Shown in pieces: positions 1,191 through 23,990 of a stretch of 32,057 nt of DNA (position 1 is its first letter; each line of letters opens with the position of its first letter). The notes under the pieces are model-generated. The model was not told the origin of the DNA. It saw nothing but the letters and a program-made list of their open reading frames with translations, and did no database searches. The stretch is from an uncultured bacterium (GTDB lineage: Bacteria; Actinomycetota; Acidimicrobiia; Spongiisociales; JAHEDJ01): positions 1 through 32,057 of the forward strand of contig CBDTUP010000002.1 of the NCBI GenBank assembly GCA_965363685.1, in the 5' to 3' direction. The position numbers and the translations under genes are program-made.

Positions 1191-1232
1191 ACCGAGCGGT
1201 CAGCTATCAGCATCCAGCCACCAGCAAGAAGC
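1191..1232. repeat. Heptad tandem array (6 units)
   Basis: Plus strand in phase reads ACCGAGC GGTCAGC TATCAGC ATCCAGC CACCAGC AAGAAGC. The minus strand reads GCTTCTT GCTGGTG GCTGGAT GCTGATA GCTGACC GCTCGGT. Confidence 0.7.
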
Positions 1233-2759: not shown

Positions 2760-2810
2760 ATGGGTTGTGTTCTATGCAACGTTACAGGGAGCGGTGTATT
2801 CCGCACAAGG

Positions 2811-2859
2811 AGGTATTGGGTACCAGGTAGTAGGTAGTAGGTAGTGGCCAATCGCGTAT
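2811..2859. repeat. Heptad tandem array (7 units, 3 perfect AGGTAGT)
   Basis: In phase: AGGTATT GGGTACC AGGTAGT AGGTAGT AGGTAGT GGCCAAT CGCGTAT. Confidence 0.8.
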
Positions 2860-2889: not shown

Positions 2890-3324
2890 GTGCTCTACTT
2901 TGCCTATGGGTCCAACATGGCCTCAGATGTGATGCTCGAGCGGTGCCCCGGAGCCACGGCACAGGGCTCCGCCCGTCTCGACAATCACCGTCTCGCCTTT
3001 CGTCTGCCGTCGCAGCGCTGGGGAGGGCACGCAGCCGATATCGCCGATGAAGCCGGATCGTTCACCTGGGGCGTGCTGTGGGCCATCACACCGGAACACC
3101 TCACCACCCTCGACCAACACGAAGCCAGATACGACCGTCGTTGGGTGCAACCGCACAACGAACGCGGTGTTGAAGCCGTCACCTACCGGGTCAAGCCGGA
3201 TTCGATCGGACCCGACGGCTCACCCCACCCCACATACCTCGATCACCTCATCCAAGGTGCAATCGAACACGGGCTCCCCAAGAGCTACGTTGCCGAACTC
3301 AGGTCTTATCTGGCCAAGGGCTAA
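2890..3324 (+). CDS. Gamma-glutamylcyclotransferase / AIG2-like family protein
   Basis: The N-terminal YFAYGSNM motif is characteristic of the GGCT fold. The start is GTG and the protein is 144 aa. Confidence 0.7.
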   Translation: MLYFAYGSNMASDVMLERCPGATAQGSARLDNHRLAFRLPSQRWGGHAADIADEAGSFTWGVLWAITPEHLTTLDQHEARYDRRWVQPHNERGVEAVTYRVKPDSIGPDGSPHPTYLDHLIQGAIEHGLPKSYVAELRSYLAKG

Positions 3325-3360
3325 TGGCCAATAGCTAGGGGCGGCCGGCCGAAGGCCGGC
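3312..3360. repeat. Heptad tandem array (7 units) running into a GC hairpin
   Basis: In phase: GGCCAAG GGCTAAT GGCCAAT AGCTAGG GGCGGCC GGCCGAA GGCCGGC. The array begins in the last codons of the GGCT-like gene, and its TAA stop lies in unit 2. Confidence 0.7.
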
Positions 3361-7964: not shown

Positions 7965-8013
7965 GCTGATAGCTGAAAGCTGATGACTGATAGCGGCAGC
8001 CGCTACGCGGCTG
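7965..8013. repeat. Heptad tandem array (7 units) overlapping the secA stop and 3' hairpin
   Basis: In phase: GCTGATA GCTGAAA GCTGATG ACTGATA GCGGCAG CCGCTAC GCGGCTG. The last three units form hairpin GGCAGCCGC-TAC-GCGGCTGCC (7995-8015). Confidence 0.75.
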
Positions 8014-10633
8014 CCCCATGACACTTCTTGTACTTCTTCCCAGAACCACACGGGCAGGGATCATTACGGCCAACCTTGTCGGAGTGAGCCGGACCTCTAG
8101 AGGATGAAGAGGGCTGTCCACCGCCCGCAGCAACCTGAAGCTTCGGTTTCTCTTCGCGTTTCGCAAGTTGGGCGTGAAAGAGGTAGCGGACCGCGTCTCG
8201 CTTCGCGGAGTCAACGAGGTCGGCAAACATGTCAAAACCCTCGCGCTGATACTCGACGAGCGGATCTCTCTGGCCCATCGCCCGCAGTCCGATACCTGCC
8301 CGCAGATAGTCCATCTCAGCAAGGTGCTCGCGCCACTTGTTGTCGATGATCGAGAGAATGACATTCTGTTCGATTTGTCTGAGGACATCCGAACCGAACT
8401 CGGCCTCGCGGCGTTCATAAACGGCATGGGCCTCCTCGAGAGCAGCATCGACGACGTCTACGACCGCTAGCCCACCCGGTTGATCGACCTTCTCTCTCGT
8501 CAACTCAGTGGGGTACAGCACGGATAGCTCCTGGATCAGCTCATCCCAATCCCACTCCGAAGGAGAAACCTGGTCGGTGATGGCGATCTGGACCGTCTCC
8601 TCAACAACCTCGTCAATCCACTCGCTGGCCAGCTCCTTGCTGGAATCACCTTCGAGGATTCCAGATCGCCATTCGTAGATGACCTGTCGCTGTTTGTTCA
8701 TTACCTCATCGTATTTGAGTACGTTCTTCCGGATCTCGAAGTTTTGCGACTCGACCTGACCTTGTGCCCGCTCGATCGACTTGCTGACCATCTTGGCCTC
8801 GATCGGCATGTCTTCCGGCATCCGCAGTCGCTCCATGATGGAGGAAACCCGCTCGCCCTGGAATCTTCGCATGAGATCGTCTTCGAGTGATAGGTAGAAC
8901 CTCGACTCACCGGGATCACCCTGCCGACCCGATCTTCCTCGGAGCTGATTGTCGATACGGCGGGATTCGTGGCGCTCGGTGCCGACCACGTACAACCCAC
9001 CGGCAGCGACAACTTTGCGATAGCCCTCCTCGAGCTCCGTGCTGTAGCGGGCAAACGCAGCTTCGTAGCCTTCCTTGTACTCAGGAGATTCGGGCACGAG
9101 GCCCTGGCGCTTCATCTCTCCCTTGGCCAGTTCGTCGGGGTTACCACCGAGGCGGATGTCGACGCCCCGCCCGGCCATGTTGGTCGCCACGGTCACCGCG
9201 CCCAAGCGACCCGCCTGGGCGATGATGTCGGCTTCACGCGCATGGTGCTTGGCGTTCAGCACCTCGTGTTTGACGCCGCGCTTGCGAAGCATCGTCGAGA
9301 GACGCTCGCTCTTCTCGATTGAGACAGTACCGACCAGAGACGGTTGCCCCTTCTTGCTTCGTTCGGTGAGGTCATCGATAAGGGCGTTGAACTTGGCGTC
9401 CTCAGTCTTGTAGACGAGATCGGGTTCATCGATCCGAGCAATCGGTTGGTTGGTCGGAATCTCCACGACCTCAAGTCCGTAGATCTCCGCAAATTCCGCC
9501 GCCTCCGTCTTGGCAGTACCCGTCATCCCGGCGAGCTTCTCGTACATGCGGAAGTAGTTCTGCAAGGTGATGGTCGCCAGCGTCTGGTTCTCTTCCTTGA
9601 TCTTGACGCCCTCTTTGGCCTCAATCGCTTGGTGCAACCCCTCCGAATAGCGACGTCCGTCCAGTACCCGTCCGGTGAACTCGTCGACGATCTTCACCTC
9701 GCCGTTGTCGATCAGATAGTCGACATCCTTCTTGTACAGCACCTTGGCCTTCAACGCCACATCGAGATGGTGGACGAGATCGACGGCGGCGAAGTCGTAC
9801 ATGTTCTCGACACCGAGGATCTCTTCGACGCGGGTAACACCGTCCTCGGTTGTGACAACCTGACGCTTTGCCTCGTCGATTTCATAATGTTGATCGACTC
9901 GGAGCCGATCAACGATCCGCGAGAAGTCACGGTAATACTTGGCAGTGTCGGCCACCCGACCGGAGATGATCAGCGGCGTTCTCGCCTCGTCAACGAGGAT
10001 GGAGTCGACCTCGTCGACAATGGCATAAGCGTGCCCTCGCTTGACCATATGGTCGACCCGCATCGCCATGTTGTCGCGCAAATAATCGAACCCGAACTCG
10101 TTGTTGGTCCCATAGGTGATGTCGGCACCGTAGGCCGGGCGTCGTTCCTCAGGAGTCATCGCCGACTGAATGAGCCCGACTTCGAGACCGAGGAAACGGT
10201 GAACCCCGCCCATCCACTCCGCATCGCGTGAAGCCAGGTAGTCGTTCACTGTGACAACATGCACGCCACCGCCGGAGAGGCCGTTGAGGTAGCACGGAAG
10301 GGTAGCGACGAGCGTTTTCCCCTCACCGGTCTTCATCTCAGCGATCATGCCGCGATGGAGAGCGCCCCCACCGATCACTTGCACATCGAAGGGGCGCATA
10401 CCGAGAACCCGCCGTGAAGCCTCACGAACGACCGCGAAAGCTTCCACTTCCAGATCATCGACGGATGCCCCGTTGTGCAATCGCTGCCTGAAGTCGTCGG
10501 TCTTCGCCCTCAGTTCGACATCGGTCAGCTTTTCGATTGTTGGCTCGAGGTCGTTCACTGCCGCCGTCAGAACCTCGAGATCGGAAAACGCTTTGCCTTC
10601 GCCGACGCGAAGTATTTTGCTGAGAATGGACAT
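8003..10633 (-). CDS. secA: Preprotein translocase ATPase SecA
   Basis: The N-terminus is [15 protein letters not shown]. It has the [19 protein letters not shown] motor motif and the C-terminal zinc finger [14 protein letters not shown]. Length is 876 aa. Confidence 0.97.
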
Positions 10634-10686
10634 GAGTTACCAATCATATCGGTGGTAGGCGCTACTGAGGTCGTCGTGCCTCCGGG

Positions 10687-12027
10687 TCAGGAATTCTGAT
10701 ACCCGGCGACCTCGAGAAGCGCCGCCGGATCGAGTCCGGCTCCAGCCGGTGTGAGTTGATCCACAACCGTCCTCCCGATCATCGAGAATGGCTCGGGAAT
10801 CTCGAGCGAGGCGCCACCGGCGGAACGAACCAACACCACATCCGGATGGTCGGCGGCCTCGTTGTTGTTTCTGGTCACCATGACAAGTTCGCCGCCTGCC
10901 AGCTGCAATAGTGAACCGGTCGGGTACACCCCGACCATCTTTATGAACGCGTGCACCATGTTCGGGTCGTAGAAGGTCCCTGCACCCTGTAGCAGTACTT
11001 GAAGAGCCCGATTGGGCGTCTCCGCCCGACGGTAGGAACGACGGGTCGTGAGTGCGTCGTAGGTGTCGGCAGTGGCTACCAGTCGGCTGAAGAAGTGCCG
11101 TTCGCGGTCATAGACGAGCGACGGGTAACCCTGACCGTCGAAGCGGGCATGATGCTCAAAAGCTACGACGGCAGCGATTTCCTGGCCGGGAGCGGCAGCC
11201 GCCAGGATTGCGGCGGCACCTTCTTGAGGATGGAGCTTGATTTCTGCCCATTGTTCAGGATTCAAACGACCCGGATACTGCAGAGTCGATGCCTGGACCC
11301 TCACTTTGCCGATGTCGTGTAGAAGCGCGCCGACTGCCAATAGCTTGAGTTCGTCCTCGGGCAATCCAGCGAGCCTGGCGAGCGCAATCGACAGGATGCA
11401 GACGTTCACCGAGTGATAAAAGGTGTACTCATCGTGGCTCTTCATCGTCGAGAGGAGCAACGAAGCGCTTGGTTGAGCAAGCGTGTGTTCGACCAGCTGC
11501 TCGACTGCCCACGTCGCACCAGTGAGATCGAAGCCTTCATCGACCTCCAGAGCCATCGTGACTCCTCGGAGAACATCCAACGAGCGAGCGTACGACCTGC
11601 GGAGACCGGAGATCGCCTCATCGGACTCGAGTTCCGCCCTCGTGAACGGCCCTTCGTTCAGCCGGATGGTGCCACCGGCCGGAATATCACCCGACAGGCC
11701 GGCTGCAAAACCAGCGAGGTCGTAGACGTCACCTTCAGATACCGGGTACTCGAAGGAAATGGATTCGATCCCACGACTCTGCAGGTCCCGGAGAAGCTTG
11801 TTGTACTCCAGCGAGGCATGGGCCAGGAGGCTCCGATTCTCGTAGAGCGAATCACCGAGAATCGACAGCACCACCTCACCAACGGTGTCCTTGCACAGGC
11901 GGTTTGCATTCTCCCGGAGCTTTCCCAGAACTTCCGCGGTCGCCGGATGGTCGAGTGGGTACAGAGCCAGTTGGGTGGTAGCGGCCCGCAGCTGACCGAG
12001 AACATCCCGCGATATCCGTTCGCTCAT
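10687..12027 (-). CDS. HD-GYP domain protein (putative cyclic-di-GMP phosphodiesterase) with an N-terminal sensor/partner domain of about 190 aa
   Basis: It has the HD motif LLHDIGK and the motif EHHARFDGQGYP (variant of HHExxDGxGYP). Its start overlaps the upstream stop as ATGA (12024-12027). Confidence 0.8.
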   Translation of the reverse strand: MSERISRDVLGQLRAATTQLALYPLDHPATAEVLGKLRENANRLCKDTVGEVVLSILGDSLYENRSLLAHASLEYNKLLRDLQSRGIESISFEYPVSEGDVYDLAGFAAGLSGDIPAGGTIRLNEGPFTRAELESDEAISGLRRSYARSLDVLRGVTMALEVDEGFDLTGATWAVEQLVEHTLAQPSASLLLSTMKSHDEYTFYHSVNVCILSIALARLAGLPEDELKLLAVGALLHDIGKVRVQASTLQYPGRLNPEQWAEIKLHPQEGAAAILAAAAPGQEIAAVVAFEHHARFDGQGYPSLVYDRERHFFSRLVATADTYDALTTRRSYRRAETPNRALQVLLQGAGTFYDPNMVHAFIKMVGVYPTGSLLQLAGGELVMVTRNNNEAADHPDVVLVRSAGGASLEIPEPFSMIGRTVVDQLTPAGAGLDPAALLEVAGYQNS

Positions 12028-13919
12028 CCCTGGCTTCCCTTCAATGCATCCCTGGCCGAGCGTCTGAGAGTACGCGTCGACGCCGAGAAGCTGAATCGCT
12101 TGGCGGCTAGTTGCTCGAGTGCCGCACGAGTCTTGGGACTCGATCTCTCAGAGAGGAGGTCCACGACCCGCTGCTTCTCGGCCAGATCCAGGCTACGACG
12201 GTCCAGGGCAGCCACCAACACCCGCTCGGCAGCATCGCTCTGCTGGGTCCCGAGCAGCGCAATCGCGGTTTGCCGAATGCTTGGATGGTCATCGCCGAGT
12301 GCAGTCTCGAAGAACGGTACGGCTTCATCGCCAAGCATCGCCAGACCACGCAACGCCTCGAGGCGCACACGATGATCAGCGTATGAGAGAACCGGGCGCA
12401 TCGCCCGGATCGCATCGCGGTCACCTGTGTGTCGAAGAACGATCACGATATTGCGGACGAGATACCAGCGCGGATCGCTTAGACGGGCGGTTAACGGGTC
12501 GGGATCATCTGTTGCGACTTCGGACAGCATGTCGACGAGCATCCGTCTGCGTGCTGCATCCTGTTCCTCGGCGAGAATGTCCACCAGCACATTTACCGCG
12601 CTCGTACCGAGCGCCTTGAGGAGTCGCACCGCCGGGCCCGCCTCTCCACCTTCGGTGGCCGTCTGCACTACCGCACTCATGATCTCGGATGAGGAGATTT
12701 GGGCAAGGGCCTCCTCGACTTCCGGCCGCCGGTGATCGGCAAACGTGCTCGCATCCATGACAGCTCTAAGCCACAACTCCGCTCGCCGATACTGACCGCG
12801 GCGAACTGCCGTACCTACCTTGCCGATCCAGATTCGCATCAACCGGCGAAAGCGGTCATCGCGGTCTTCGGCGAACAACAACCCGCGGAAGACCTCCAGC
12901 GCGTGATAGAAGAAGTGTTGGGGATTTGGGAACTCCGACTGCAGTGCTTCAACAAACGAAGACTCGTCGACCCCTGAACCAGCCAGATCGCGCAACCGTT
13001 CGTGGACACTGACGGCAGCTACTTCTCTGGCAGCCTGAACAGCGTCGGTGGTCTGGATCAGTTCCAACAGTTCCTCCGGACGGCCGTCAACACGATCCGT
13101 CGAAACTCGCGCATAGTCGAGCAGCAAAGCAAGGCCTGATGGATCAAGACTCGGAGCAAGCCGCGCCAACTCGTTCCCTGCGAACTGATCCAGGAACGCT
13201 CGTTCAGAGTCGGATTCCTGTCGATTCAGAAACCTGGTGAATACCGCCATGCTGGCCGGCGTTGGCAGATGGAAGAAGGTCTCAACGAACGCTTTCACTA
13301 CCTCTTCCCGGCCCTGGTAATCGTCGTCATCCACGAGTACGAGGGTCGCCTGGTACTCCTCGAAAAACAGATCAGCCAGTTTTTCCGGGTCACCACCCGC
13401 CTCTTCCACCAGGGCGGCAGCAAACTCCTTCGGGTCGGAGCCTCGATCGATGATCGACTGAACGCGATCGTCTCGATCGACCACCTCCTCCTCGACGAGC
13501 GTGCGTAGCTGCGAACGTTGGATGACCGAGATGCTGGCAACACCGTCTCGCCTCAGAGCAGCCGCCACGCCGCCGGAGGCTCGGACCGATTCCTCTTCCT
13601 TGGCCAGCGAACCAAACAACTTGGCGATGTCCAAAGCACCCGGTGAATCCTCGAACCGAATCGACTCGATGTGATGGACGTAGCAACGTCGGGCAAGACG
13701 TTCTGCTCCTTCACGCTCCGTTTCCACCTCATCACCCTCTGAGAGGAAATGCGGACCCTCGACCTCGATGGTCATATCCGGCTCAACCACCTCGCGGAGC
13801 GTTTCGACAGCGCGCCGAAACGCAGGTTGCGTTTCAGGATCGGGATAGAGGCTATGAACCGTCCACGCCGTACCCAGCGCCTCAACGGCGACCACCTGCG
13901 GACGACGCTCTACTTGCAT
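12024..13919 (-). CDS. HEAT-repeat protein, function unknown (631 aa)
   Basis: The C-terminal part has HEAT/PBS-lyase-like repeats (DPRWYLVRNIVIVLRHTGDRDAI..., DHRVRLEALRGLAMLGDEAV..., DDHPSIRQTAIALLG). The N-terminal ~100 aa resemble the HD-GYP N-terminus. No catalytic motif seen. Confidence 0.6.
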   Translation of the reverse strand: MQVERRPQVVAVEALGTAWTVHSLYPDPETQPAFRRAVETLREVVEPDMTIEVEGPHFLSEGDEVETEREGAERLARRCYVHHIESIRFEDSPGALDIAKLFGSLAKEEESVRASGGVAAALRRDGVASISVIQRSQLRTLVEEEVVDRDDRVQSIIDRGSDPKEFAAALVEEAGGDPEKLADLFFEEYQATLVLVDDDDYQGREEVVKAFVETFFHLPTPASMAVFTRFLNRQESDSERAFLDQFAGNELARLAPSLDPSGLALLLDYARVSTDRVDGRPEELLELIQTTDAVQAAREVAAVSVHERLRDLAGSGVDESSFVEALQSEFPNPQHFFYHALEVFRGLLFAEDRDDRFRRLMRIWIGKVGTAVRRGQYRRAELWLRAVMDASTFADHRRPEVEEALAQISSSEIMSAVVQTATEGGEAGPAVRLLKALGTSAVNVLVDILAEEQDAARRRMLVDMLSEVATDDPDPLTARLSDPRWYLVRNIVIVLRHTGDRDAIRAMRPVLSYADHRVRLEALRGLAMLGDEAVPFFETALGDDHPSIRQTAIALLGTQQSDAAERVLVAALDRRSLDLAEKQRVVDLLSERSSPKTRAALEQLAAKRFSFSASTRTLRRSARDALKGSQG

Positions 13920-14569
13920 CAGTCGATTTGAATTAGGTCTTCACGCAAGGCGTACATCACAGCTTCGCCGCGCGAATGCAATCCGAGTTTGTCCAGGATA
14001 TTGCGAACGTGGTTCTTGACGGTGTTTTCTGAGATATAGAGCATCTCCCCGATCTCTCGACTCGTCCGGCCCTGAGCCACAGCCTGAAGAACCTCGATCT
14101 CTCGACCGGTGAGCGCCGGCTTTCGGCCGACAACCACATCCCGATGCCTGAGCATCTGCGCGACGGTCTCGAAGAGCTTCATTCCCATCGCCGGCGAAAT
14201 GACCGCTCCCCCAGTCATCACGTCCTTCATCGCCGAGACGAGGTGAGGAAGCGGCGTCGTCTTCGTGATGTAGCCAACGCTGCCCGCCTTGATCGCCTTC
14301 AGCAGGTCTTCCTCCGATTCGCTGGCAGTAAGCAGAACCACCTTGGTTTCGGGAGCAGCGGCAATGAGTTTGTCTACGACTTCCAGACCGGAAATCCCCG
14401 GCATCAAGACATCCAGGACGATCAAATCAGGCTGTTGCTCCTTGGCGACCTGGACGCCGGCCAGGGCGCCTTCGGCTGTGCCAACGACCTCAAAACCTGC
14501 ATTTTCCAGCGCGGCCGACATGCCGGCAGTGAAGAGCGGGGCATCGTCAATGATGATTACGCGCGTCAT
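13919..14569 (-). CDS. NarL/FixJ (LuxR-type HTH) response regulator, with no kinase gene in the window
   Basis: The receiver domain has IIIDD, DLIVLDVLMPG (phospho-acceptor Asp), LLTAS and a conserved Lys. The C-terminal part is LTGREIEVLQAVAQGRTSREIGEMLYISENTVKNHVRNILDKLG. Confidence 0.88.
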   Translation of the reverse strand: MTRVIIIDDAPLFTAGMSAALENAGFEVVGTAEGALAGVQVAKEQQPDLIVLDVLMPGISGLEVVDKLIAAAPETKVVLLTASESEEDLLKAIKAGSVGYITKTTPLPHLVSAMKDVMTGGAVISPAMGMKLFETVAQMLRHRDVVVGRKPALTGREIEVLQAVAQGRTSREIGEMLYISENTVKNHVRNILDKLGLHSRGEAVMYALREDLIQID

Positions 14570-15111
14570 GCCGGCTCTATCAATCCGAGGGCGCCATCGC
14601 GTCGGCGGTAGAGCACGCTGGGCATGTCGCTTTCTGCGTTCTGGAAGAAGAAGAAACTATGCCCGAGTAGGTCCATCTGCAGTGCGGCCTCCTCCGGCGT
14701 CATCGGCTTCATCACGAACTGCTTCACGCGCACAATCACAGGGCCATCATCCGGCTCGTCCTCGACGGACGCGAAGCCGAGGTCCTCACCCTTCCGACCC
14801 TTCCGCGAACGTTGTACAAGTCTTTCTTTCAATCGGCGAAGTCGCTTCTCCATCTTGTCGACGGCGATGTCGAGAGCCGCTTCGGCGGATTCGGCGGTCG
14901 ACTCGACGCGCATCATCTGGCCGGCTGCGCGACTCGTGACTTCAACCTTGAATCGTCCCTCTGCGACTCGACGATTCTGCGCTTCGGTGAACTCGACATC
15001 TGCATCGAGCACGCCATCGAAAAAGCGACCGGCGTGAGAAACCTTGCTCTCGGCCATCTCACGAAGTCGCTCGTCCACCTTGGTATTTCTACCGCGGACT
15101 CGAACTTCCAC
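14566..15111 (-). CDS. hpf: Ribosome hibernation promoting factor, long form (HPF)
   Basis: The N-terminal sigma-54-modulation/RaiA fold starts MEVRVRGRNTKVDERLRE. The C-terminal dimerisation domain reads VKQFVMKPMTPEEAALQMDLLGHSFFFFQN. The start is GTG with GGAGGT 6 nt upstream. Confidence 0.9.
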   Translation of the reverse strand: MEVRVRGRNTKVDERLREMAESKVSHAGRFFDGVLDADVEFTEAQNRRVAEGRFKVEVTSRAAGQMMRVESTAESAEAALDIAVDKMEKRLRRLKERLVQRSRKGRKGEDLGFASVEDEPDDGPVIVRVKQFVMKPMTPEEAALQMDLLGHSFFFFQNAESDMPSVLYRRRDGALGLIEPA

Positions 15112-15125
15112 GCTCTACCTCCGAT

Positions 15126-15725
15126 CTATGGACCCGGCCGTTGACCGGCTCCATCCTCACCTAGGAGACTAGTCACCTTTAGCGCGCGGGTGGCGGTAAC
15201 CGCACCAACGACCAGGTCACCCAATTCTCGTTCTGCTGCCTGCAATGTCGACCCGGTGGTAACCACGTCGTCGACAAGGATTATCGGTTCATTTGTGGGC
15301 CTGCTGAAGAACATTGGCGGATGTCTTCTGGCCGCATTCCTGCCGGTGTGAGTACGTGTCCAAAGAGGCGCCGACAGCACCCTTGCCACGATGCGACCGG
15401 TCAGTGTTGCCAACTCCTTCGCCAGGACCAGGGCCGGGTCCACCCCGTATCGCAGGCGCCTGACTCCGGAGCGAGGAACCGGGACCAGAATGCCTGGGCC
15501 ACCGTCAAGGAGCGGCATCATCGCTTCGGCCAACCACCTCCCAGCCGGTTGGAGCGATTCGAACTTGATCCTGTGCACTAGGCGACGTGCCGAGAACTCA
15601 TGGCGGAACGCCGACCTCACGAGTAAACCCGATTCGAGACGTTGAACTCCACCAGAACGAAAGTCGGCTAGACACGCCGGACAAACACTGCGTTCACTCC
15701 AGCTGCGGCAAGACAAACAGACCAT
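15126..15725 (-). CDS. comFC: ComF-family phosphoribosyltransferase-domain protein
   Basis: It has N-terminal CxxC...CxxC (CLSCRS...CPAC) and the PRPP loop ILVDDVVTTGSTL. I prefer ATG 15725. The track start (TTG 15806) would translate the heptad repeat array. Confidence 0.75.
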   Translation of the reverse strand: MVCLSCRSWSERSVCPACLADFRSGGVQRLESGLLVRSAFRHEFSARRLVHRIKFESLQPAGRWLAEAMMPLLDGGPGILVPVPRSGVRRLRYGVDPALVLAKELATLTGRIVARVLSAPLWTRTHTGRNAARRHPPMFFSRPTNEPIILVDDVVTTGSTLQAAERELGDLVVGAVTATRALKVTSLLGEDGAGQRPGP

Positions 15726-15728
15726 CAA

Positions 15729-15819
15729 TCGAAGATACCCCGTCGAAGTGACAAGAATCCGACATCCGAGAGCCTCTCGAGCCAACGGCCAAAGGCCAAT
15801 GGCCAATGGCCAATGGCCG
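15729..15819. repeat. Heptad tandem array filling the ahcY-comF spacer (13 units, 3 perfect)
   Basis: In phase: TCGAAGA TACCCCG TCGAAGT GACAAGA ATCCGAC ATCCGAG AGCCTCT CGAGCCA ACGGCCA AAGGCCA ATGGCCA ATGGCCA ATGGCCG. Confidence 0.85.
15732..15737 (-). promoter_or_regulatory. Candidate -10 box (TATCTT) for a leaderless comF
   Basis: On the minus strand TATCTT is followed by 6 nt (CGATTG) and then ATG 15725. There is no SD sequence. Confidence 0.35.
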
Positions 15820-15824
15820 CGAAG

Positions 15825-17072
15825 CTATGTCCCCTCTTGCCAGGAGGCCAGATAGGCCCTTTGCTCGTCGGTGAGTTCCTCTAGGCCCCCGCCCATAGTC
15901 GCGAGCTTGATGGAAGCCACCTCTTCGTCGAGTTCCTTAGGCAGGGTATAGATCTGCGGCGACAGGGTGCCGGCATTGCTGATGAGCCACTCGGCTGCCA
16001 TCGCCTGATTGGCGAACGACATGTCCATCACGTCTGCGGGATGGCCTTCCGCTGCTCCCAGGTTCACGAGACGACCTTCGGCTGCGACGAACAACGTGCG
16101 CCCGTCGGCAAGCTCGAACCCTTCGAGATTCTCACGGGCCGGACGCCTGGACACCGCCATACCGGCCAGTGCTTCGAGGTCGAGCTCAATGTCGAAGTGA
16201 CCCGCATTGGAGAGAATGACGCCGTCTTTCATCCGCTCGAAGTGGCGACCACGCAACACATGCTTGTTACCCGTCACCGTCACGAACACATCTCCAATCG
16301 ACGCAGCATCGTCGGCCGTGAGTACCTGATACCCGTCCATCGCAGCTTCGAGTGCGCGAATCGGATCGACCTCGACCACAACGACTTTGGCCCCAAATCC
16401 GTCGGACCTGTCGGCAACACCTCGCCCGCAGTCTCCGTAGCCAACGACGACGACCGTGGAGCCTGCCAGCAGGACATTGGAAGCTCGCAGAATTCCGTCA
16501 ATCGCGGACTGCCCCGTTCCATAGCGGTTGTCGAACAGGTGCTTGGTCGCGGAGTCATTTACAGCGACCACAGGCAACCGAAGCGTCCCATCTTCGGCCA
16601 TGGCCCGCAGCCGGATGACGCCCGTCGTTGTCTCTTCGGTGGATCCAACTGGATTCAGTTCAGTGCGGTCGGTGTGGAGGATCGTGGCCAGGTCTGCCCC
16701 ATCATCCATCGTCACATCGGGTTCTGCATCGAGCACCGCGTGGATATGGCTGTAGTAGCGGTCGGGATCCTCAGCCCTCACTGCGAACACCGGAATGCCG
16801 TCCTCGACGAGTGCCGCGGCAACGTCATCCTGTGTTGAGAGTGGATTGCTGGCACAAAGAAGAGGCTTCGCCCCGCCGTCGCGGAGGGCCAGCATCAGAT
16901 TGGCAGTCTCAGCCGTCACGTGGAGACAGGCAGCGACTGTCCTCCCCTCGAGGGGACGCTCAGCTCGGAAGCGCTCGCGCAAATTCTCCAGCACCGGCAT
17001 CCGCCGTCCTGCCCAGGCAATTCGCTGGGCTCCGATTTCGGCAAGTGCCGGATCGGCGATATCGAATTCCAT
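15825..17072 (-). CDS. ahcY: Adenosylhomocysteinase (short, about 415 aa type)
   Basis: It has SNPLSTQDDVAAAL and the NAD-binding GYGDCGRG motif. ATG 17072 is preceded by GAAGGAAAG. The alternative GTG 17087 overlaps the upstream stop as GTGA. Confidence 0.92.
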   Translation of the reverse strand: MEFDIADPALAEIGAQRIAWAGRRMPVLENLRERFRAERPLEGRTVAACLHVTAETANLMLALRDGGAKPLLCASNPLSTQDDVAAALVEDGIPVFAVRAEDPDRYYSHIHAVLDAEPDVTMDDGADLATILHTDRTELNPVGSTEETTTGVIRLRAMAEDGTLRLPVVAVNDSATKHLFDNRYGTGQSAIDGILRASNVLLAGSTVVVVGYGDCGRGVADRSDGFGAKVVVVEVDPIRALEAAMDGYQVLTADDAASIGDVFVTVTGNKHVLRGRHFERMKDGVILSNAGHFDIELDLEALAGMAVSRRPARENLEGFELADGRTLFVAAEGRLVNLGAAEGHPADVMDMSFANQAMAAEWLISNAGTLSPQIYTLPKELDEEVASIKLATMGGGLEELTDEQRAYLASWQEGT

Positions 17073-17083
17073 CGTTCTTTCCT

Positions 17084-18061
17084 TCACAATCGATTCTTCA
17101 GTTCAGTCAACACGTCGACAGGCCCAGGATCGATCCCGGCTGCCTCGGCAACGAGTACAGAGACGAGATCTCCAACCAGGCCCAAACTGGCGGCGCGGGC
17201 GAGCGGGGATGCGCCGGTCGACCACACCTCACCTCCGACGAACGATCCGTCTCCGAGAAGATCGGACGTTAGCGCGAAGCGATGAGAGATCTCAGGCCGT
17301 TCGCCCTTGTCCCGCAACATGACGATGCCCGAAGATTCTCCAACATCATGATGGGACGCAGCCCAGCCGACCAGTTCGTTGTGGTCGAGTTCGGGAATGG
17401 TCGACCAGTAGGCAGGTGTCTTTGCGTTCTCGTGCATTTGCTTTGCCCAACGCTGCGCGGCCACTTCCGCAGGTCCGCTCGAGCCCCAGATGACCGGCAG
17501 TCGTCCGGAGAGGTTGGCAGCGATCTCGCGCGCAAGGTTGCGCGTCTCCTCATCTGCCAGCATCTCTTCCATGAGGTCCGCCGCTTCCGCGAGCATCGTT
17601 TGCGTCTCAGAAAGCCCCGTGGAACGACCGACCAGCCGTAGCACCGCACCGACCAGATACCCGAGCGCTGCTCTCGGTTGCAGCCCCGACGGAACCACTA
17701 GTCGTGGAAGATCTCTGTTATCCGCGATTGCGATCGCCTCCCCGCCCGTCGAAATGACGGCAACTGGAAGCTCCAGGTCGATCGCCTCTCCTAGAGACGA
17801 GAGCGTCTCTGCCGTGTTCCCGGAGTAGGAAACTGCAATGACGAGTGGGCGCGCCGAGGCAGCCCATTTAGGCAGCCCATAGTCCTTGTGGATCCTCACA
17901 TCGACCTGCGTCTCGGCGACCGCAGCCTGGACGAAGTCGCCCGAGATTCCCGACCCACCCATCCCGCAAACAAGGATTGTGGAGGAAGGAGGTATCGCCG
18001 GGGTATCGAGGGTTGCAGCCCACCGGTACTGCAGTGGGAGGCTCTCGATCATCGACCACAT
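17084..18061 (-). CDS. SIS-domain bifunctional phosphoglucose/phosphomannose isomerase family protein
   Basis: It has the CGMGGSGISGD SIS motif and is 325 aa. It holds the conserved position between pmm and ahcY, and its start overlaps the pmm stop as TGATG. Confidence 0.75.
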   Translation of the reverse strand: MWSMIESLPLQYRWAATLDTPAIPPSSTILVCGMGGSGISGDFVQAAVAETQVDVRIHKDYGLPKWAASARPLVIAVSYSGNTAETLSSLGEAIDLELPVAVISTGGEAIAIADNRDLPRLVVPSGLQPRAALGYLVGAVLRLVGRSTGLSETQTMLAEAADLMEEMLADEETRNLAREIAANLSGRLPVIWGSSGPAEVAAQRWAKQMHENAKTPAYWSTIPELDHNELVGWAASHHDVGESSGIVMLRDKGERPEISHRFALTSDLLGDGSFVGGEVWSTGASPLARAASLGLVGDLVSVLVAEAAGIDPGPVDVLTELKNRL

Positions 18062-19575
18062 CAGCTCGATCTCTCAGCTTCTTCGATCAGCATCACAGGT
18101 ATGCCGTCTGTGACCGGGTAGCGAAGCCCACATTCGGTGCAATCGAGCTTCGAGTCGGCCGTATTCTCGGTCAACTCTCCATGACAACTCGGACAAACGA
18201 GGATGGCCATCAGTTCGGGAGCAACGAGGCCTACCGGAGCAGGGTCGCTGAGCGAACGGATCTCAGAAACGAGCGAGTCGACCGCGGCGCCATCCGGTCC
18301 TTCGGCGTTCAGCCGCAGCACCGGCTCTGTGTTGGAGGGGCGCAGATTGAGCCAGCGGTCCGGCCATTCGATGGTTAGCCCGTCGGTCTTGTCGATCGAT
18401 GCATCTGAATAGTGCTGCTCAACGGATTCCAGGACCGCCGCCTGATCGGAGACGCTGAGATTGATCTCGCCGGAAGCTGCGTACGGCTCAACCTCGTTGC
18501 GGAGTTCGGACAGCGAACGCCCCGATTCTGAGAGGATCTGCAGCAACACCAGCATGGCCAGCATGCCCGAGTCCGCCCTGTAGTTGTCGCGGAAGTAGTA
18601 GGGGCCGCTGTGTTCTCCCCCGAAGATCGCCCCCGTTTCCGCCATTATCTGTTTGATATATGAGTGTCCGACCCTGGTGCGGATCGGAGTACCTCCGGCC
18701 GCCGAAACCAGTTCAGGCACCGCGCGGCTGGTGATGAGGTTGTGCACGATCGTTGCCCCGGGTTCCCGAGCGAGAAACCACCTGGCAATCAGGGCGGTGG
18801 TTGTGCTCCCCGAGAGAGGTTTCCGCTGATCGTCGATAAAGAAGGCTCTGTCGGCGTCGCCGTCAAACGCTACTCCCAGATCCGCCTGCTGATCCTCCAT
18901 CAAGGCGATCAGGTCTACGAGATTCTCGGGGTTGAGGGGATCGGCGGGGTGGTTCGGGAAGGTTCCGTCTGGTTCGAGGTAGAGGGGGATGAGACTCGCC
19001 CGGATTCGAGAGAAGACCTCAGGCAGGACCACACCGGCCATTCCGTTGCCACCATCGACCGCAACTCGGAGTCCGGCGATGCCAGGACCGTCGACAATCG
19101 AGAACAAATGGTTGATGTAGTCGGCCGTCCCCTCGAACGCTGCGATGGAACCGACGGCCTCTGACGGTTGCAACCCGGCCTCGGCAATGGCACGGATGTC
19201 TTGAAGACCGGTATCGTGCCCGACCGGCGCCGCGCCCTCGCGGCAGAGCTTGATTCCGTTGTACTCGGGTGGATTATGCGAGGCAGTGATCATGGCACCC
19301 GGTACGTTCTCGCTGCCCGAGACGAAGTAGACGGTATCGGTGGCGACCTCTCCGAGATCGAGAACATCCACACCTTGTGCGGCGATCCCTTCCATGAACG
19401 CACCTGCTATCGACGGCGACGACTCTCGACAATCGCGCCCGACTGCAATCTTCCCGGCCCCGGCGAATTTGGCAAATGCTGCTCCGATGCGACCTGCTCC
19501 TTCAGCATCGAGTTCTCCTGTGTCGGTGCGGCCGCGAATGTCGTAGGCCTTGAAAATCTTCTCGTACTCGCTCAT
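18061..19575 (-). CDS. manB: Phosphomannomutase/phosphoglucomutase fused to a C-terminal Trm112-like zinc ribbon
   Basis: It has the TASHNP phosphoserine loop, FDGDADR Mg site and GGEHSG sugar loop. The last 52 aa read PELMAILVCPSCHGEL...LDCTECGLRYPVTDGIPVMLIEEA. ATG 19575 is preceded by GGAAAGGG. Confidence 0.88.
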   Translation of the reverse strand: MSEYEKIFKAYDIRGRTDTGELDAEGAGRIGAAFAKFAGAGKIAVGRDCRESSPSIAGAFMEGIAAQGVDVLDLGEVATDTVYFVSGSENVPGAMITASHNPPEYNGIKLCREGAAPVGHDTGLQDIRAIAEAGLQPSEAVGSIAAFEGTADYINHLFSIVDGPGIAGLRVAVDGGNGMAGVVLPEVFSRIRASLIPLYLEPDGTFPNHPADPLNPENLVDLIALMEDQQADLGVAFDGDADRAFFIDDQRKPLSGSTTTALIARWFLAREPGATIVHNLITSRAVPELVSAAGGTPIRTRVGHSYIKQIMAETGAIFGGEHSGPYYFRDNYRADSGMLAMLVLLQILSESGRSLSELRNEVEPYAASGEINLSVSDQAAVLESVEQHYSDASIDKTDGLTIEWPDRWLNLRPSNTEPVLRLNAEGPDGAAVDSLVSEIRSLSDPAPVGLVAPELMAILVCPSCHGELTENTADSKLDCTECGLRYPVTDGIPVMLIEEAERSS

Positions 19576-19600
19576 TGGACCCTTTCCGATCGCAATCCAG

Positions 19601-19606
19601 ATTGTA
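19601..19606 (-). promoter_or_regulatory. Candidate -10 box (TACAAT) of the pmm-SIS-ahcY operon
   Basis: On the minus strand TACAAT lies 25 nt upstream of ATG 19575, and the leader contains an SD sequence. It sits in the divergent 74-bp spacer. Confidence 0.35.
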
Positions 19607-19649
19607 AGGCGCATTTGCATGCCCCGGAACGCGTACACTTCGCTGGCTC

Positions 19650-20357
19650 ATGCGCCATATCTCGATCGTCATTCCCGTCCACAACGAGGCTTCGTTTCTC
19701 GAAGCTGCCTGTGATCAATTGCTCCCGGGTCTGGCGTCCATCGATGCTCAGGTTTCCGTTCTACTGGTAGAAAACGGATCCACCGACGAAACGCTGGCAA
19801 TCGCTAGACGCCTGCAACACCCGTCACTGTCGGTCATTTCACTGGCCGAGGCCGATTATGGAGCGGCAATGAGAGCCGGATTCACCGCGGCTGCAGACTC
19901 CGACTGGGTAGTCAACTTCGACATCGACTACTTCTCGGTTCCGTTCGTCGTCAACCTGTTGGATTCCGCCTCCGACGTGGTAATTGCCTCGAAACGGGCT
20001 CCGGGATCTGATGATCGACGATCCGTGTTGCGCCGGACCGGGACTCTTACGTTCAACATGCTCCTGCGTTTGCTGTTCGGCTCCCACGTCTCCGATACAC
20101 ATGGGATCAAGGGGTTCCGCGGTCAGGTTATCCGGGAGTTGGTTCCAAAGGTCATCAGGGACCAGGACCTCTTTGATACCGAGTTAGTGCTTCGGGCCGA
20201 GAAGGCCGGCTTCAGAATCACAGAGGTCCCGATCGTGGTCGAGGAACTTCGTGCCGCGCGCTCGTCATTCATCCGCAGGGTGCCGAGGACTGTCTCAGGA
20301 TTGATTCAGCTGCGCCGTTCCTTGTCAATGGAGCGCCGGAACACGAGGTCTCGATAG
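19650..20357 (+). CDS. Family-2 glycosyltransferase, polyprenyl-phosphate sugar synthase-like (GtrB/Ppm1-like)
   Basis: It has the ISIVIPVHNE start and the VENGSTDET motif. It is 235 aa, soluble and single-domain. Confidence 0.75.
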   Translation: MRHISIVIPVHNEASFLEAACDQLLPGLASIDAQVSVLLVENGSTDETLAIARRLQHPSLSVISLAEADYGAAMRAGFTAAADSDWVVNFDIDYFSVPFVVNLLDSASDVVIASKRAPGSDDRRSVLRRTGTLTFNMLLRLLFGSHVSDTHGIKGFRGQVIRELVPKVIRDQDLFDTELVLRAEKAGFRITEVPIVVEELRAARSSFIRRVPRTVSGLIQLRRSLSMERRNTRSR

Positions 20358-23082: not shown

Positions 23083-23099
23083 CTAGAAGCCCAGTCCGC

Positions 23100-23276
23100 T
23101 CAGGTGGTGGGCTTGCGGGCGAGGTCCAAGACGTCGCGCAGATCGATCAACTCACCGTCACGGTCCCACCACTTCTCGTCACATTTGTGACATGAGAAGA
23201 AGTCAACTTCCGTACCATCGGGAAGCTTCTGATGAATCTCGATCACTTCGTCAACGGCACAGCGGGGACACTGCAT
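23100..23276 (-). CDS. Unlisted 58-aa zinc-ribbon protein
   Basis: My manual translation gives MQCPRCAVDEVIEIHQKLPDGTEVDFFSCHKCDEKWWDRDGELIDLRDVLDLARKPTT. It has two CxxC pairs, GAAGGAAGGA about 10 nt upstream of the ATG, and coding-like GC3. It falls below the 60-aa track cutoff. Confidence 0.6.
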   Translation of the reverse strand: MQCPRCAVDEVIEIHQKLPDGTEVDFFSCHKCDEKWWDRDGELIDLRDVLDLARKPTT

Positions 23277-23920: not shown

Positions 23921-23990
23921 TTCAAGCTTCCAGCGGTCGGCTTTCAGCCGTCAGCTTTGGGACGAGGCAATGGGCAAAGCTCAGAGCTCA
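23921..23990. repeat. Heptad tandem array (10 units) starting at the DUF5719 stop codon
   Basis: Minus strand in phase: TGAGCTC TGAGCTT TGCCCAT TGCCTCG TCCCAAA GCTGACG GCTGAAA GCCGACC GCTGGAA GCTTGAA. Confidence 0.75.

What the first reader, a model, noticed from the sequence alone, without database searches (positions are those of the whole stretch)
15729..15819. The ahcY-comF spacer is made entirely of 7-nt tandem units, the flagship of a window-wide heptad-repeat family
Read in one phase, the 91-nt spacer is 13 consecutive heptads. The last six share NNGGCCA and three are perfect ATGGCCA (the same repeat as GGCCAAT in another phase). Phased heptad arrays also occur at 1191-1232, 2811-2859, 3312-3360, 7965-8013 and 23921-23990. 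The unit sequences grade into each other: GGCCAAT, GGCTAAT, GCTGATA, GCTGAAA, GCTGACG. All six sites are operon boundaries, the few places where genes are not translationally coupled. Period 7 is incompatible with coding constraint. This resembles the heptameric STRR repeats of heterocystous cyanobacteria, and I am not aware of an equivalent described for Actinomycetota. Possible roles are promoter-upstream architecture, protein or RNA binding arrays, or copy-number-variable spacing elements.
Basis: seen in the sequence. Interest (0 to 1): 0.7.

Follow-up and report, generated by a model that had tools for sequence, protein, structure and literature searches.

The report
Variable 7-base repeat between two genes
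A short stretch of DNA between two housekeeping genes of an uncultured marine-sediment actinobacterium is a real 7-base tandem repeat whose copy number differs between wild strains, but it belongs to a class of bacterial repeats that has been known since 2007 and is ordinary.

Summary
The repeat is real but smaller than claimed. Only 15781-15818 is repetitive: 5.4 copies of GGCCATT on the coding (minus) strand. The other 52 nt of the spacer show no period 7. It is not an assembly artefact, because independent public assemblies of the same Acidimicrobiia species carry it. Those assemblies also differ by whole units. One allele has one unit fewer, one has at least 7 units plus an inverted copy, and one has 3 degenerate units.

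Lag 7 is the strongest autocorrelation in five separate spacers of the window and is absent from coding DNA, so the wider heptad signal is genuine. Three points limit its novelty:
- Period 7 is also the commonest multi-copy short tandem repeat in 1.3 Mb of unrelated bacterial loci.
- The literature already records heptanucleotide repeats as the most abundant long simple repeat in prokaryotes, including Actinobacteria.
- Heptad richness is patchy among relatives: strong in one, weak or absent in three.

My best reading is a slippage-driven heptanucleotide microsatellite in the only unconstrained DNA between the ahcY stop codon and a conserved, probably leaderless, comF promoter. A hairpin role in the ahcY transcript is possible but unproven. 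This is a new member of a known kind, of low to moderate interest.

The parts
15781..15818 (-). Heptanucleotide tandem repeat of 5.4 units, copy-number variable. It reads GGCCATT x3, GGCCTTT, GGCCGTT, GGC on the minus strand (GCCAATG on the plus strand).
   Evidence: TRF score 62. Lag-7 z = 8.2. A 7-nt whole-unit deletion appears in contigs of runs X1 and X9 and in L207. Longer and shorter alleles appear in L201, L203 and L206.
15825..17087 (-). ahcY (S-adenosyl-L-homocysteine hydrolase). Its stop codon TAG lies at 15827-15825, 6 nt before the repeat. Gene callers elsewhere start it at a 415-aa product.
   Evidence: Pfam AdoHcyase 3.8e-61 and AdoHcyase_NAD 3.7e-52. Gene calls.
15126..15725 (-). 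comF-like gene (phosphoribosyltransferase fold with an N-terminal CxxC...CxxC motif). The start is ATG 15725-15723, product 199 aa. The longer TTG ORF reaching 15806 is spurious.
   Evidence: Weak Pfam Pribosyltran hit. Called as 199 aa in L201, L202, L205 and L206. The N-terminus M-[VIT]-C-L-[SA]-C is conserved in relatives.
15732..15737 (-). Inferred -10 hexamer TATCTT (TAnnnT), 6 nt before the comF ATG. This implies a leaderless comF transcript.
   Evidence: TAnnnT followed by 6-8 nt and ATG is kept in all five lineages despite sequence change: TATCTT, TACGTT, TACGGT, TACGTT, TACTTT. The stringent sigma-70 scan found nothing, so this is inference.
15750..15757 (-). Conserved block TTCTTGTC (TTCTGTC in relatives) upstream of the -10. 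It is a probable promoter element, and the arrays in every lineage lie upstream of it.
   Evidence: Comparison of spacers.
15767..15779 (.). Short palindrome CGAGAG-G-CTCTCG between the repeat and the promoter block. It is specific to allele A.
   Evidence: Read from the sequence. It is absent from alleles B and C.
2811..2852 (-). Heptad array ACTACCT x3, GGTACCC, AATACCT (minus strand), preceded by one ATTGGCC. It ends 2 nt upstream of the inferred tmRNA -35.
   Evidence: TRF 2825-2845, 3.0 perfect copies. Spacer lag-7 z = 4.5. Coordinates.
2779..2808 (-). Inferred tmRNA promoter TTGTGC-18 nt-TAACGT.
   Evidence: Both hexamers are conserved in strain L212 and in L231 while the spacer between them varies. 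This is inference, and the consensus scan found no match.
7965..7992 (-). Heptad array TATCAGT CATCAGC TTTCAGC TATCAGC (minus strand) between the secA terminal hairpin and the prfB promoter region. It is invariant among strains.
   Evidence: TRF period 7. Spacer lag-7 z = 4.8. The array is identical in L201, L203, L204 and L205.
7995..8015 (-). Perfect 9-bp hairpin GGCAGCCGC-GTA-GCGGCTGCC that carries the secA stop codon in and next to its loop. It is not part of the heptad array.
   Evidence: Fold -21.5 kcal/mol, z = -3.75. An equivalent hairpin is present in L234.
23921..23955 (-). Degenerate heptad array GCTGACG GCTGAAA GCCGACC GCTGGAA GCTTGAA (minus strand) between DUF5719 and DUF3499.
   Evidence: TRF period 14 at 23925-23958. 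Spacer lag-7 z = 4.8. Identical in L201 and L202.
1198..1225 (+). Degenerate heptad array GGTCAGC TATCAGC ATCCAGC CACCAGC upstream of, or at the 5' edge of, the acyltransferase gene.
   Evidence: Lag-7 segment 1194-1236. Some gene callers extend the ORF across it, so its non-coding status is not settled.
3312..3339 (+). Weak heptad-like stretch GGCCAAG GGCTAAT GGCCAAT AGCTAGG at the convergent GGACT/smpB junction. Its first 13 nt overlap the GGACT coding end. A terminator-like hairpin follows at 3343-3361.
   Evidence: TRF period 14, 1.9 copies. Lag-7 z = 2.7. Hairpin coordinates.

Best explanation
The feature is a heptanucleotide microsatellite: a long simple sequence repeat with a 7-nt unit. 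It sits in the 97 nt between the ahcY stop codon and the comF start of an uncultured Acidimicrobiia bacterium from marine and estuarine sediments.

**Origin (inferred).** It arose from a short seed, [AG]GCCNTT x2-3, which strains at about 95% identity still show. It grows and shrinks by whole units through slipped-strand mispairing during replication or repair, and point mutations degrade older units.

**Position (inferred).** It occupies the only stretch of the spacer that is free of constraint. That stretch lies downstream of the ahcY stop and upstream of a conserved comF promoter block, TTCTGTC...TAnnnT-N6-ATG, which implies a leaderless mRNA.

**Relation to the other arrays.** The other heptad arrays of the window are older, degenerate products of the same genome-wide tendency. 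Period 7 is the preferred slippage unit in many prokaryotes, and the reason is not established. Mrazek et al. 2007 proposed that 7 nt matches the stretch of DNA held by the polymerase.

**Shown:** the repeat itself, its whole-unit polymorphism, its restriction to spacers, and the generality of period 7.

**Inferred:** the slippage mechanism, neutrality, and the promoter assignment.
For: **Whole-unit polymorphism in natural populations.**
- A 7-nt deletion at 15794 appears in contigs of runs X1 and X9 and in JGI contig L207.
- Allele B (L201) has at least 7 units.
- Allele C (L203, L206) has 3 degenerate units.

**The spacer is the indel hotspot of the region.**
- All 18 gap openings between the window and L201 lie in 15725-15818. 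That comparison spans 20.6 kb at 99.57% identity.
- 14 of 16 gap openings against L203 lie in the same stretch.
- Perfect units vary in number, whereas the degenerate arrays at 7965 and 23921 are invariant. This is what slippage predicts.

**Period 7 is generic.**
- Among TRF arrays with at least 4 copies in 1.32 Mb of 80 loci from many phyla, 28 have period 7. Periods 5, 6, 8 and 9 have 7-8 each.
- The window has 1 such array, against 0.68 expected per 32 kb.
- GGCCAAT x3 occurs in at least 120 metagenome contigs of 31-74% GC, usually flanked by degenerate NNCCAAT units.
- The literature agrees.

**Relatives.**
- They carry unrelated units at the same spacers: AGTCGCG in L230, and CAGTACT plus CGGAAGA in L234.
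- Heptad richness is patchy. Pooled lag-7 z is 4.1 (window), 1.8, 0.5, -0.7 and 4.55.
- This fits a genome-level mutational propensity rather than a conserved site.
Against: - Neutrality is assumed, not shown.
- Arrays recur immediately after stop codons and immediately upstream of promoter blocks in several lineages.
- In the three lineages where an array abuts the ahcY stop, the unit has a self-complementary core: GGCC, TCGCGA, AGTACT.
- The degenerate arrays at 7965 and 23921 have persisted unchanged between strains at 95-99.8% identity. Too few substitutions exist there to test for constraint.
- Within-sample heterogeneity could not be measured, because only assembled contigs were available, not raw reads.
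- Only about 32 kb of this genome was available, so 'genome-wide' rests on a small sample.
Confidence: 0.7

Rival explanations
1. The array is kept because the ahcY transcript needs a hairpin right after its stop codon. Such a hairpin could be a terminator without a U-tract or a stabiliser of the mRNA 3' end. Tandem units with a palindromic GGCC core are an easy, self-renewing way to build one. Copy number then tunes stem length.
For: - The minus-strand RNA of the spacer folds into a long imperfect hairpin made of the repeat: -51.8 kcal/mol, z = -4.8. The allele with one unit fewer still folds (z = -3.7). Allele B adds an inverted copy that gives a 10-bp perfect stem (z = -6.5).
- Other gene ends in the window have GC-rich hairpins without U-tracts at the stop codon: secA at 7995-8015 and smpB/GGACT at 3343-3361.
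- L231 has two plain hairpins at the same place (z = -2.5).
- Units that abut the ahcY stop in L230 and L234 also have palindromic cores.
Against: - There is no U-tract, and the terminator scan finds nothing.
- Allele C folds weakly (z = -1.6). The arrays of L230 and L234 fold no better than shuffles (z about -1.0 and -1.15).
- Any GGCC-containing tandem repeat is self-complementary by construction, so the strong z-score needs no selection.
- No transcript data are available. The runs labelled RNA behave like DNA.
Confidence: 0.25
2. The array is a copy-number-tunable module upstream of the comF promoter. It would be a row of 7-bp-spaced binding sites for a DNA-binding protein, or a spacer whose length sets promoter activity. 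Known examples are the TTTTGAT heptads of the Vibrio cholerae ctxAB promoter, the 7-bp repeats of the Haemophilus influenzae hmw promoters, and the heptad operators of the plasmid omega repressor.
For: - The array lies at about -56 to -93 from the inferred comF start.
- In all five lineages some heptad array lies upstream of the conserved TTCTGTC promoter block, by 2-26 nt where measured.
- The same holds for the tmRNA promoter in three of four lineages, with three unrelated units.
- Unit number differs between strains.
- Functional heptad promoter repeats exist in other bacteria.
Against: - Unit sequences differ completely between lineages and even between spacers of one genome, which argues against a sequence-specific binder.
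- The array lies outside the core promoter, so unit changes do not alter the spacing between -35 and -10.
- GCTGAWA arrays occur in both orientations relative to the downstream gene.
- In heptad-rich genomes about half of all spacers carry arrays, so coincidence at orthologous spacers is expected by chance.
- comF is not an obvious contingency gene.
Confidence: 0.1
3. The arrays form a lineage-specific dispersed family comparable to cyanobacterial STRR: a few defined heptamer words propagated to many intergenic sites, with a dedicated but unknown role.
For: - GGCCAAT occurs in three separate spacers and GCTGAWA in three, each more than 20-fold enriched over coding DNA.
- Further contigs in the same metagenomes carry GGCCAAT arrays with other flanks.
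- The unit family RGGTANT is shared by the window (2811-2845) and the distant relative L234 (12665-12694) at non-orthologous sites.
Against: - The sample is tiny, at about 1.5 kb of spacer.
- With about 54 array pairs compared, one 6-of-7 unit match is expected by chance (my estimate).
- GGCCAAT arrays occur in contigs of 31-74% GC from many environments, so the word is not lineage-specific.
- Close relatives L231 and L233 lack the signal.
- No mobile-element features were seen.
Confidence: 0.15
4. The array is a chance similarity or an assembly artefact.
For: None beyond the general risk that short repeats collapse or expand in short-read assemblies. Several Logan contigs break at the array.
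Against: - 29 of 32 lag-7 matches gives z = 8.2.
- The same array appears in JGI and ENA assemblies and in Logan contigs of public runs from several samples and studies.
Confidence: 0.01

Closest known systems
Long simple sequence repeats with 7-nt units in prokaryotes (Mrazek, Guo and Shah 2007, as summarised in PMC4679880 and PMC4692102)
   Same: Head-to-tail heptamers that are intergenic and vary by whole units between strains. They are patchily distributed among genomes, Actinobacteria included, and no function is established.
   Different: Nothing essential differs. This is an Acidimicrobiia example with only 5.4 units. Most arrays in the window are degenerate and would fall below the 'long' threshold used in that survey.
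STRR heptamer repeats of heterocystous cyanobacteria (own knowledge: STRR1 CCCCAGT, STRR2 TTGGTCA, STRR3 CAACAGT)
   Same: A 7-nt period, intergenic location, several unit types in one genome, and unknown role.
   Different: The unit sequences and the phylum differ. STRR arrays are numerous, on the order of a hundred per genome, which could not be tested here.
GGGAATC and GGGGAYT repeats of Xanthomonas and Nostoc (PMC4692102)
   Same: Intergenic heptamers with extensive length and sequence variation between close relatives at the same gene pairs, sometimes with inverted copies that form hairpins.
   Different: Those units have G-runs able to form G-quadruplexes. GGCCAAT has none, and its structural potential is a GGCC-based hairpin.
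TAACTGA direct repeats of marine Beggiatoaceae, cyanobacteria and some Bacteroidetes (PMC4679880)
   Same: Two to six heptamer copies in intergenic DNA near start codons. The CTGA core is shared with the window's GCTGAWA arrays.
   Different: One dominant unit occurs in a fixed 'forward' orientation upstream of start codons. Here there are several units in both orientations.
Functional heptad promoter repeats: Vibrio cholerae ctxAB TTTTGAT and Haemophilus influenzae hmw 7-bp repeats (titles and abstracts), plus heptad operators of the plasmid omega repressor (own knowledge)
   Same: Seven-bp tandem units upstream of a gene, with unit number varying between strains.
   Different: In those cases a defined protein binds the units, or unit number is shown to set expression. 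No binder or expression effect is known here, and the units are not conserved between lineages.

Membership tests
Heptanucleotide simple sequence repeat (microsatellite / VNTR) | Head-to-tail copies of a 7-nt unit, beyond chance | tested here: met
   TRF gives 5.4 copies, 93% matches and score 62. Lag-7 matches are 29/32, z = 8.2.
Heptanucleotide simple sequence repeat (microsatellite / VNTR) | Alleles that differ by whole units between strains | tested here: met
   A 7-nt indel appears in X1, X9 and L207. Alleles with at least 7 units and with 3 units appear in L201, L203 and L206.
Heptanucleotide simple sequence repeat (microsatellite / VNTR) | Non-coding location, since a period that is not a multiple of 3 is not tolerated in genes | tested here: met
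   The array lies between the ahcY stop (15825) and the comF ATG (15725). Coding DNA has no lag-7 excess.
Cyanobacterial STRR family | Unit is one of the described STRR heptamers | tested here: not met
   The units are GGCCAAT, GCTGAWA and AGGTAGT. The STRR sequences are quoted from my own knowledge.
Cyanobacterial STRR family | Many arrays of the same few units dispersed over the genome | tested here: inconclusive
   Three spacers each carry GGCCAAT and GCTGAWA within 32 kb. The rest of the genome could not be fetched.
Cyanobacterial STRR family | Host is a heterocystous cyanobacterium | tested here: not met
   The closest relatives are Acidimicrobiia MAGs.
Intrinsic (Rho-independent) terminator | GC-rich hairpin | tested here: met
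   The repeat folds on itself, -51.8 kcal/mol, z = -4.8.
Intrinsic (Rho-independent) terminator | U-tract directly after the stem | tested here: not met
   The terminator scan found 0 sites. The stem is followed by UCGAGAGG.
Phase-variable or expression-tuning promoter repeat (hmw / ctxAB type) | Repeat lies within or next to the promoter of the regulated gene | tested here: inconclusive
   The array lies at about -56 to -93 from the inferred leaderless comF start. The promoter itself is only inferred from conservation.
Phase-variable or expression-tuning promoter repeat (hmw / ctxAB type) | Unit number changes expression | not testable with these tools
   No usable transcript data exist. The runs labelled RNA show flat, DNA-like depth.
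G-quadruplex-forming heptamers (Xanthomonas / Nostoc type) | Runs of at least 3 G (or C) in each unit | tested here: not met
   GGCCAAT has only GG and CC.
Known structured RNA family | Match to an Rfam model at gathering score | tested here: not met
   Only tmRNA at 2402-2759 is found in the window.

The most novel reading that the evidence does not exclude
In a subset of Acidimicrobiia, and perhaps of bacteria generally, heptad arrays may be a selected, position-specific module and not slippage debris. A 7-nt periodic platform would be kept directly after stop codons and directly upstream of promoter blocks, with selection acting on period and self-complementarity and not on sequence.

It could be read by a factor with a 7-nt footprint, for example a cold-shock-type single-strand binder or part of the transcription machinery. 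It could also act as an RNA 3' hairpin.

Three observations would then be signatures of that function:
- arrays with unrelated units recur at the same spacers (ahcY-comF in five lineages, tmRNA promoter in three of four);
- units abutting the ahcY stop have palindromic cores;
- heptad units show a cross-phylum excess of CTGA.
Probability: 0.1. Interest if true: 0.65.

Novelty: new member of a known kind. Interest (0 to 1): 0.3.

Why it matters
If the ordinary reading holds, three modest uses remain:
- **Strain marker.** It is a clean natural example of a copy-number-variable heptanucleotide repeat in an uncultured Acidimicrobiia lineage. At least four alleles are already visible across public sediment metagenomes.
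- **Annotation warning.** The repeat contains TTG, and this generates a spurious 226-aa comF ORF.
- **Open question.** Why 7 nt is the favoured slippage unit in prokaryotes remains unanswered. Related genomes here differ sharply in heptad richness, with the window species and L234 rich and L231 and L233 poor. That contrast gives a comparative handle on the replication or repair features responsible.

Only if the arrays proved to be selected modules would this become a finding of wider interest.

Tried and rejected
- **Transcript evidence.** Four runs labelled RNA (X24-X27) hold the locus. They show flat depth of 4-6 over 20 kb on all genes, so they are DNA-like and unusable for 5' or 3' ends.
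- **Extending the genome sample beyond the window.** Five further look-ups (UDP-glucose dehydrogenase, CofE, the GGACT-family gene, epimerase, M23 peptidase) gave no new flanking DNA. The exact AhcY ORF was not on record either.
- **Original survey.** Mrazek et al. 2007 is not held in the library. I cite it only through two papers that summarise it.
- **Consensus promoter and terminator scans.** They found nothing at any array. The promoter assignments therefore rest on conservation only.
- **Are GGCCAAT arrays in metagenome contigs intergenic?** I measured the longest open frame spanning each array. 60% lay in open frames of at least 450 nt, against 81% for random segments. The test is too noisy to use, because the unit has no stop codon in any frame and the contigs are GC-rich.
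- **Loose-end flanks of other GGCCAAT loci.** They matched none of the fetched loci.
- **A 119-nt 'skip' across the secA-prfB spacer in X3 and X4.** It is a relative's contig with a divergent 101-nt spacer, not a deletion.
- **Closest reference-genome relative.** L001 in the genome collection has a different gene after ahcY, so it offers no orthologous spacer.
- **Rejected readings.** Chance, assembly artefact, coding repeat, G-quadruplex and known RNA family were all rejected.
Full report
**What is there.** The window is 60% GC. Its genes run mostly on the minus strand in an actinobacterial order:
- PMM-Trm112, a PGI-like gene, ahcY, comF-like, hpf, a LuxR-type response regulator, a HEAT-repeat protein, an HD protein, secA, prfB, ftsE, ftsX, an M23 peptidase and smpB;
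- then a GGACT-family gene on the plus strand, and tmRNA.

The best protein relatives are Acidimicrobiia MAGs.

The finding lies between the ahcY stop codon (TAG, 15827-15825) and the comF start (ATG, 15725-15723). On the coding strand the spacer reads:

GCTTCGC | GGCCATT GGCCATT GGCCATT GGCCTTT GGCCGTT GGC | TCGAGAGGCTCTCGGATGTCGGATTCTTGTCACTTCGACGGGGTATCTTCGATTG | ATG.

**Checking the observation.** Tandem Repeats Finder reports one array here: 15781-15818, period 7, 5.4 copies, 93% matches, score 62.
- Lag-7 autocorrelation is 29/32 (z = 8.2) for 15781-15819.
- It is only 16/45 (z = 1.6, p = 0.08, not the best lag) for 15729-15780.

The statement that the whole 91-nt spacer is 13 heptads is therefore wrong. 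Thirty-eight nucleotides are repeat and the rest is ordinary sequence cut into sevens.

The five other sites hold up to different degrees.
- 2811-2845 has three perfect AGGTAGT units plus two degenerate ones.
- 7965-7992 has four GCTGAWA-type units. The claimed continuation to 8013 is a 9-bp hairpin that contains the secA stop codon.
- 23921-23955 and 1198-1225 are degenerate NNNCAGC arrays.
- 3312-3339 is marginal, and a GGCCGGCC-GAA-GGCCGGCC hairpin follows it.

Taken together the period-7 signal is real.
- Lag 7 is the best of 20 lags in five separate spacers (z = 4.5, 2.7, 4.8, 5.4, 4.8).
- The pooled intergenic z is 4.1, or 3.15 without the flagship.
- Coding DNA shows none.
- The words GGCCAAT and GCTGAWA each occur in three different spacers and are more than 20-fold enriched over coding DNA.

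**Not an artefact, and variable.** Near-identical sequence is held by many sediment and estuary metagenome runs from at least a dozen studies. I laid contigs of eight such runs on 15-20 kb of the window. The only multi-base indel in the species' own contigs was a 7-nt deletion at 15794, seen in X1 and X9, which come from different studies.

Contigs that encode the identical response-regulator protein give four alleles of the spacer:
- **A** (window, L202, L205): the form described above.
- **A'** (L207): one GGCCATT fewer.
- **B** (L201): TGCCTTT, GGCCTTT x3, GGCCATT, AGCCATT, GGCCGTT, followed by an inverted copy that makes a 10-bp perfect stem.
- **C** (L203 and L206, about 95% identical to the window): only AGCCCTT AGCCGTT AGCCACT.

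All 18 gap openings between the window and L201 lie inside 15725-15818, in a comparison of 20.6 kb at 99.57% identity. So do 14 of the 16 gap openings against L203. The degenerate arrays at 7965 and 23921 are unchanged in the same strains. Perfect units change in number while degenerate ones do not, which is the behaviour expected of replication slippage.

**How general is it?** I used the 80 loci fetched through AhcY as an unplanned control. They total 1.32 Mb and come from Acidobacteriota, Chloroflexota, Proteobacteria, Patescibacteria and other phyla.
- Among tandem arrays with at least four copies, period 7 is by far the commonest: 28 arrays in 15 loci, against 7-8 for periods 5, 6, 8 and 9.
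- The window has one such array where 0.68 would be expected per 32 kb, so on that count it is unremarkable.
These range from 31% to 74% GC, and most have degenerate NNCCAAT or GNCNAAT units on either side.

The literature says the same. Two papers summarise the 2007 survey by Mrazek, Guo and Shah.
- The ten genomes richest in repeats of 5-11 nt units included three Actinobacteria.
- The authors speculated that 7 nt matches the stretch of DNA held by the polymerase (PMC4679880, PMC4692102).

**Relatives.** A SecA search and four look-ups gave syntenic loci from two relatives with 86-88% SecA identity (L230, L231) and two with 73% (L233, L234). Pooled intergenic lag-7 z-scores are 1.8, 0.5, -0.7 and 4.55, against 4.1 for the window.

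L234 is richer than the window, with eight period-7 arrays in 22.6 kb, all outside genes:
- CAGTACT x4 and CGGAAGA x5.9 directly after its ahcY stop;
- TCTTCCG and GTCCGCC directly upstream of its comF promoter;
- AAGTACC x4 just before the secA ATG;
- GTAGTGG x4.3 just after the secA terminal hairpin.

L230 has AGTCGCG x4.6 after its ahcY stop and four TCAGAAC-type units upstream of its tmRNA promoter. Strain L212 of the window species has a different spacer upstream of tmRNA, with AGCCAAT CGCCAAT CGCCACG where the window has ACTACCT x3.

Arrays thus recur at the same spacers with unrelated units, and heptad richness is a property of some genomes and not of the lineage. In the rich genomes about half of all spacers carry an array. 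Coincidence at orthologous spacers is therefore expected without selection.

**Anatomy and likely mechanism.** Comparison of the five lineages shows a conserved block in front of comF: TTCTGTC (TTCTTGTC in the window), 12-14 nt, TAnnnT, 6-8 nt, ATG. The -10-like hexamer changes sequence (TATCTT, TACGTT, TACGGT, TACGTT, TACTTT) but keeps its form and distance. I infer a promoter that gives a leaderless comF mRNA. The strict sigma-70 scan does not find it, as is usual for Actinobacteria.

The repeat lies upstream of this block and downstream of the ahcY stop, in the only part of the spacer that varies freely. My best explanation (confidence 0.7) is a slippage-driven heptanucleotide microsatellite that grew from a short [AG]GCCNTT seed. 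The other arrays of the window would be older, decayed products of the same tendency.

**Rivals.**
1. **Hairpin-forming 3' element (about 0.25).**
   - For: GGCC is self-complementary, so the repeat RNA folds into a long imperfect hairpin right after the ahcY stop (z = -4.8; alleles A' and B, z = -3.7 and -6.5). Other gene ends here have GC-rich hairpins without U-tracts. The units abutting the ahcY stop in L230 and L234 also have palindromic cores.
   - Against: allele C and the arrays of L230 and L234 fold no better than shuffles. There is no U-tract. Any GGCC repeat folds by construction.
2. **Promoter-upstream, copy-number-tuned or protein-binding module (about 0.1).** The position fits. 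However, units are unrelated between lineages, orientation is not fixed, and the core promoter spacing is untouched.
3. **STRR-like dispersed family with its own role (about 0.15).** Some words recur, but the sample is small and the words are not lineage-specific.
4. **Chance or artefact** is excluded.

**Verdict.** This is a new member of a known kind, the heptanucleotide simple repeats of prokaryotes. Its real features are copy-number polymorphism in nature and a possible, untested, hairpin role. Interest is low to moderate (0.3).

The most novel reading not excluded is that such arrays are selected, period-defined modules at gene boundaries. I put it at about 0.1.

Noticed in passing
control loci L001-L080; window 1198-1225, 7965-7992, 23921-23955: Heptad units from unrelated phyla are enriched for the tetranucleotide CTGA/TCAG. 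It occurs in 9 of 30 period-7 arrays with at least 3.5 copies, against 1.55 expected from shuffled units (0 of 500 shuffles reach 9). This is the core of the TAACTGA repeats of Beggiatoaceae and of three arrays in this window.
   Followed up: partly
window 2779-2852; L212; L230 about 17330-17380: Three lineages carry unrelated heptad arrays ending 2-5 nt upstream of the same conserved tmRNA -35-like TTGTG: ACTACCT x3 (window), NGCCAAT x3 (L212) and TCAGAAC-type x4 (L230). L231 has a plain hairpin there instead.
   Followed up: partly
window 15723-15757 and the orthologous sites in L201, L203, L230, L231, L234: A conserved block TTCTGTC-N12-14-TAnnnT-N6-8-ATG lies in front of comF in five lineages. 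It suggests a leaderless comF transcript. prfB may be similar, with TACTAT at 7938-7943, 10 nt before ATG 7927, changed to TAATAT in L203.
   Followed up: partly
window 7995-8015; L234 12642-12664: The secA stop codon sits in and next to the loop of a perfect 9-10-bp GC-rich hairpin. This arrangement is conserved in a relative with only 73% SecA identity, although the stem sequence differs.
   Followed up: partly
window 7853-7873 (minus strand): prfB carries the classical programmed +1 frameshift site AGGAGG-TTC-CTT-TGA-C. The real prfB start is ATG 7927, not the ATG at 7872 of the long ORF.
   Followed up: no
window 2402-2759 (minus strand): This is a tmRNA gene (Rfam RF00023, 167.9 bits). 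The plus-strand ORF 2420-2830 that overlaps it is spurious. Many Logan contigs of the species break inside it.
   Followed up: yes
window 15126-15806 (minus strand): The TTG inside the repeat unit (caTTGgcc) opens a spurious N-terminal extension of comF, giving a 226-aa ORF. Gene callers and conservation support the 199-aa product from ATG 15725.
   Followed up: yes
window 18061-19638; L233 1-699; L234 4265-5800: Phosphomannomutase is fused to a Trm112-like zinc-ribbon domain in the window species and in L230 and L231. The two are separate adjacent genes in the more distant relatives L233 and L234.
   Followed up: no
L234 8270-8621: The long ahcY-comF spacer of L234 is bounded by inverted heptad arrays, CGGAAGA x5.9 on the left and TCTTCCG x2.4 on the right. 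It contains several C5-6...G5-6 hairpins (for example CTCCCCCCGACGGGGGAC) and looks like a small repeated or inserted element.
   Followed up: no
window 1219-1226 (minus strand): The minus strand of the degenerate array contains GCTGGTGG, the E. coli Chi octamer. This is probably a coincidence.
   Followed up: no
runs X24-X27 laid on window 4101-24100: Four public libraries labelled TRANSCRIPTOMIC / Oligo-dT give flat depth of about 4-6 over all genes and spacers, so they behave like metagenomic DNA.
   Followed up: yes
window 15779-15817 (loose ends in runs X1, X2, X4, X5, X7, X10, X27): Other contigs in the same metagenomes carry GGCCAAT arrays with unrelated flanks. The same unit therefore exists at further loci, in this genome or in co-occurring ones.
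   Followed up: partly
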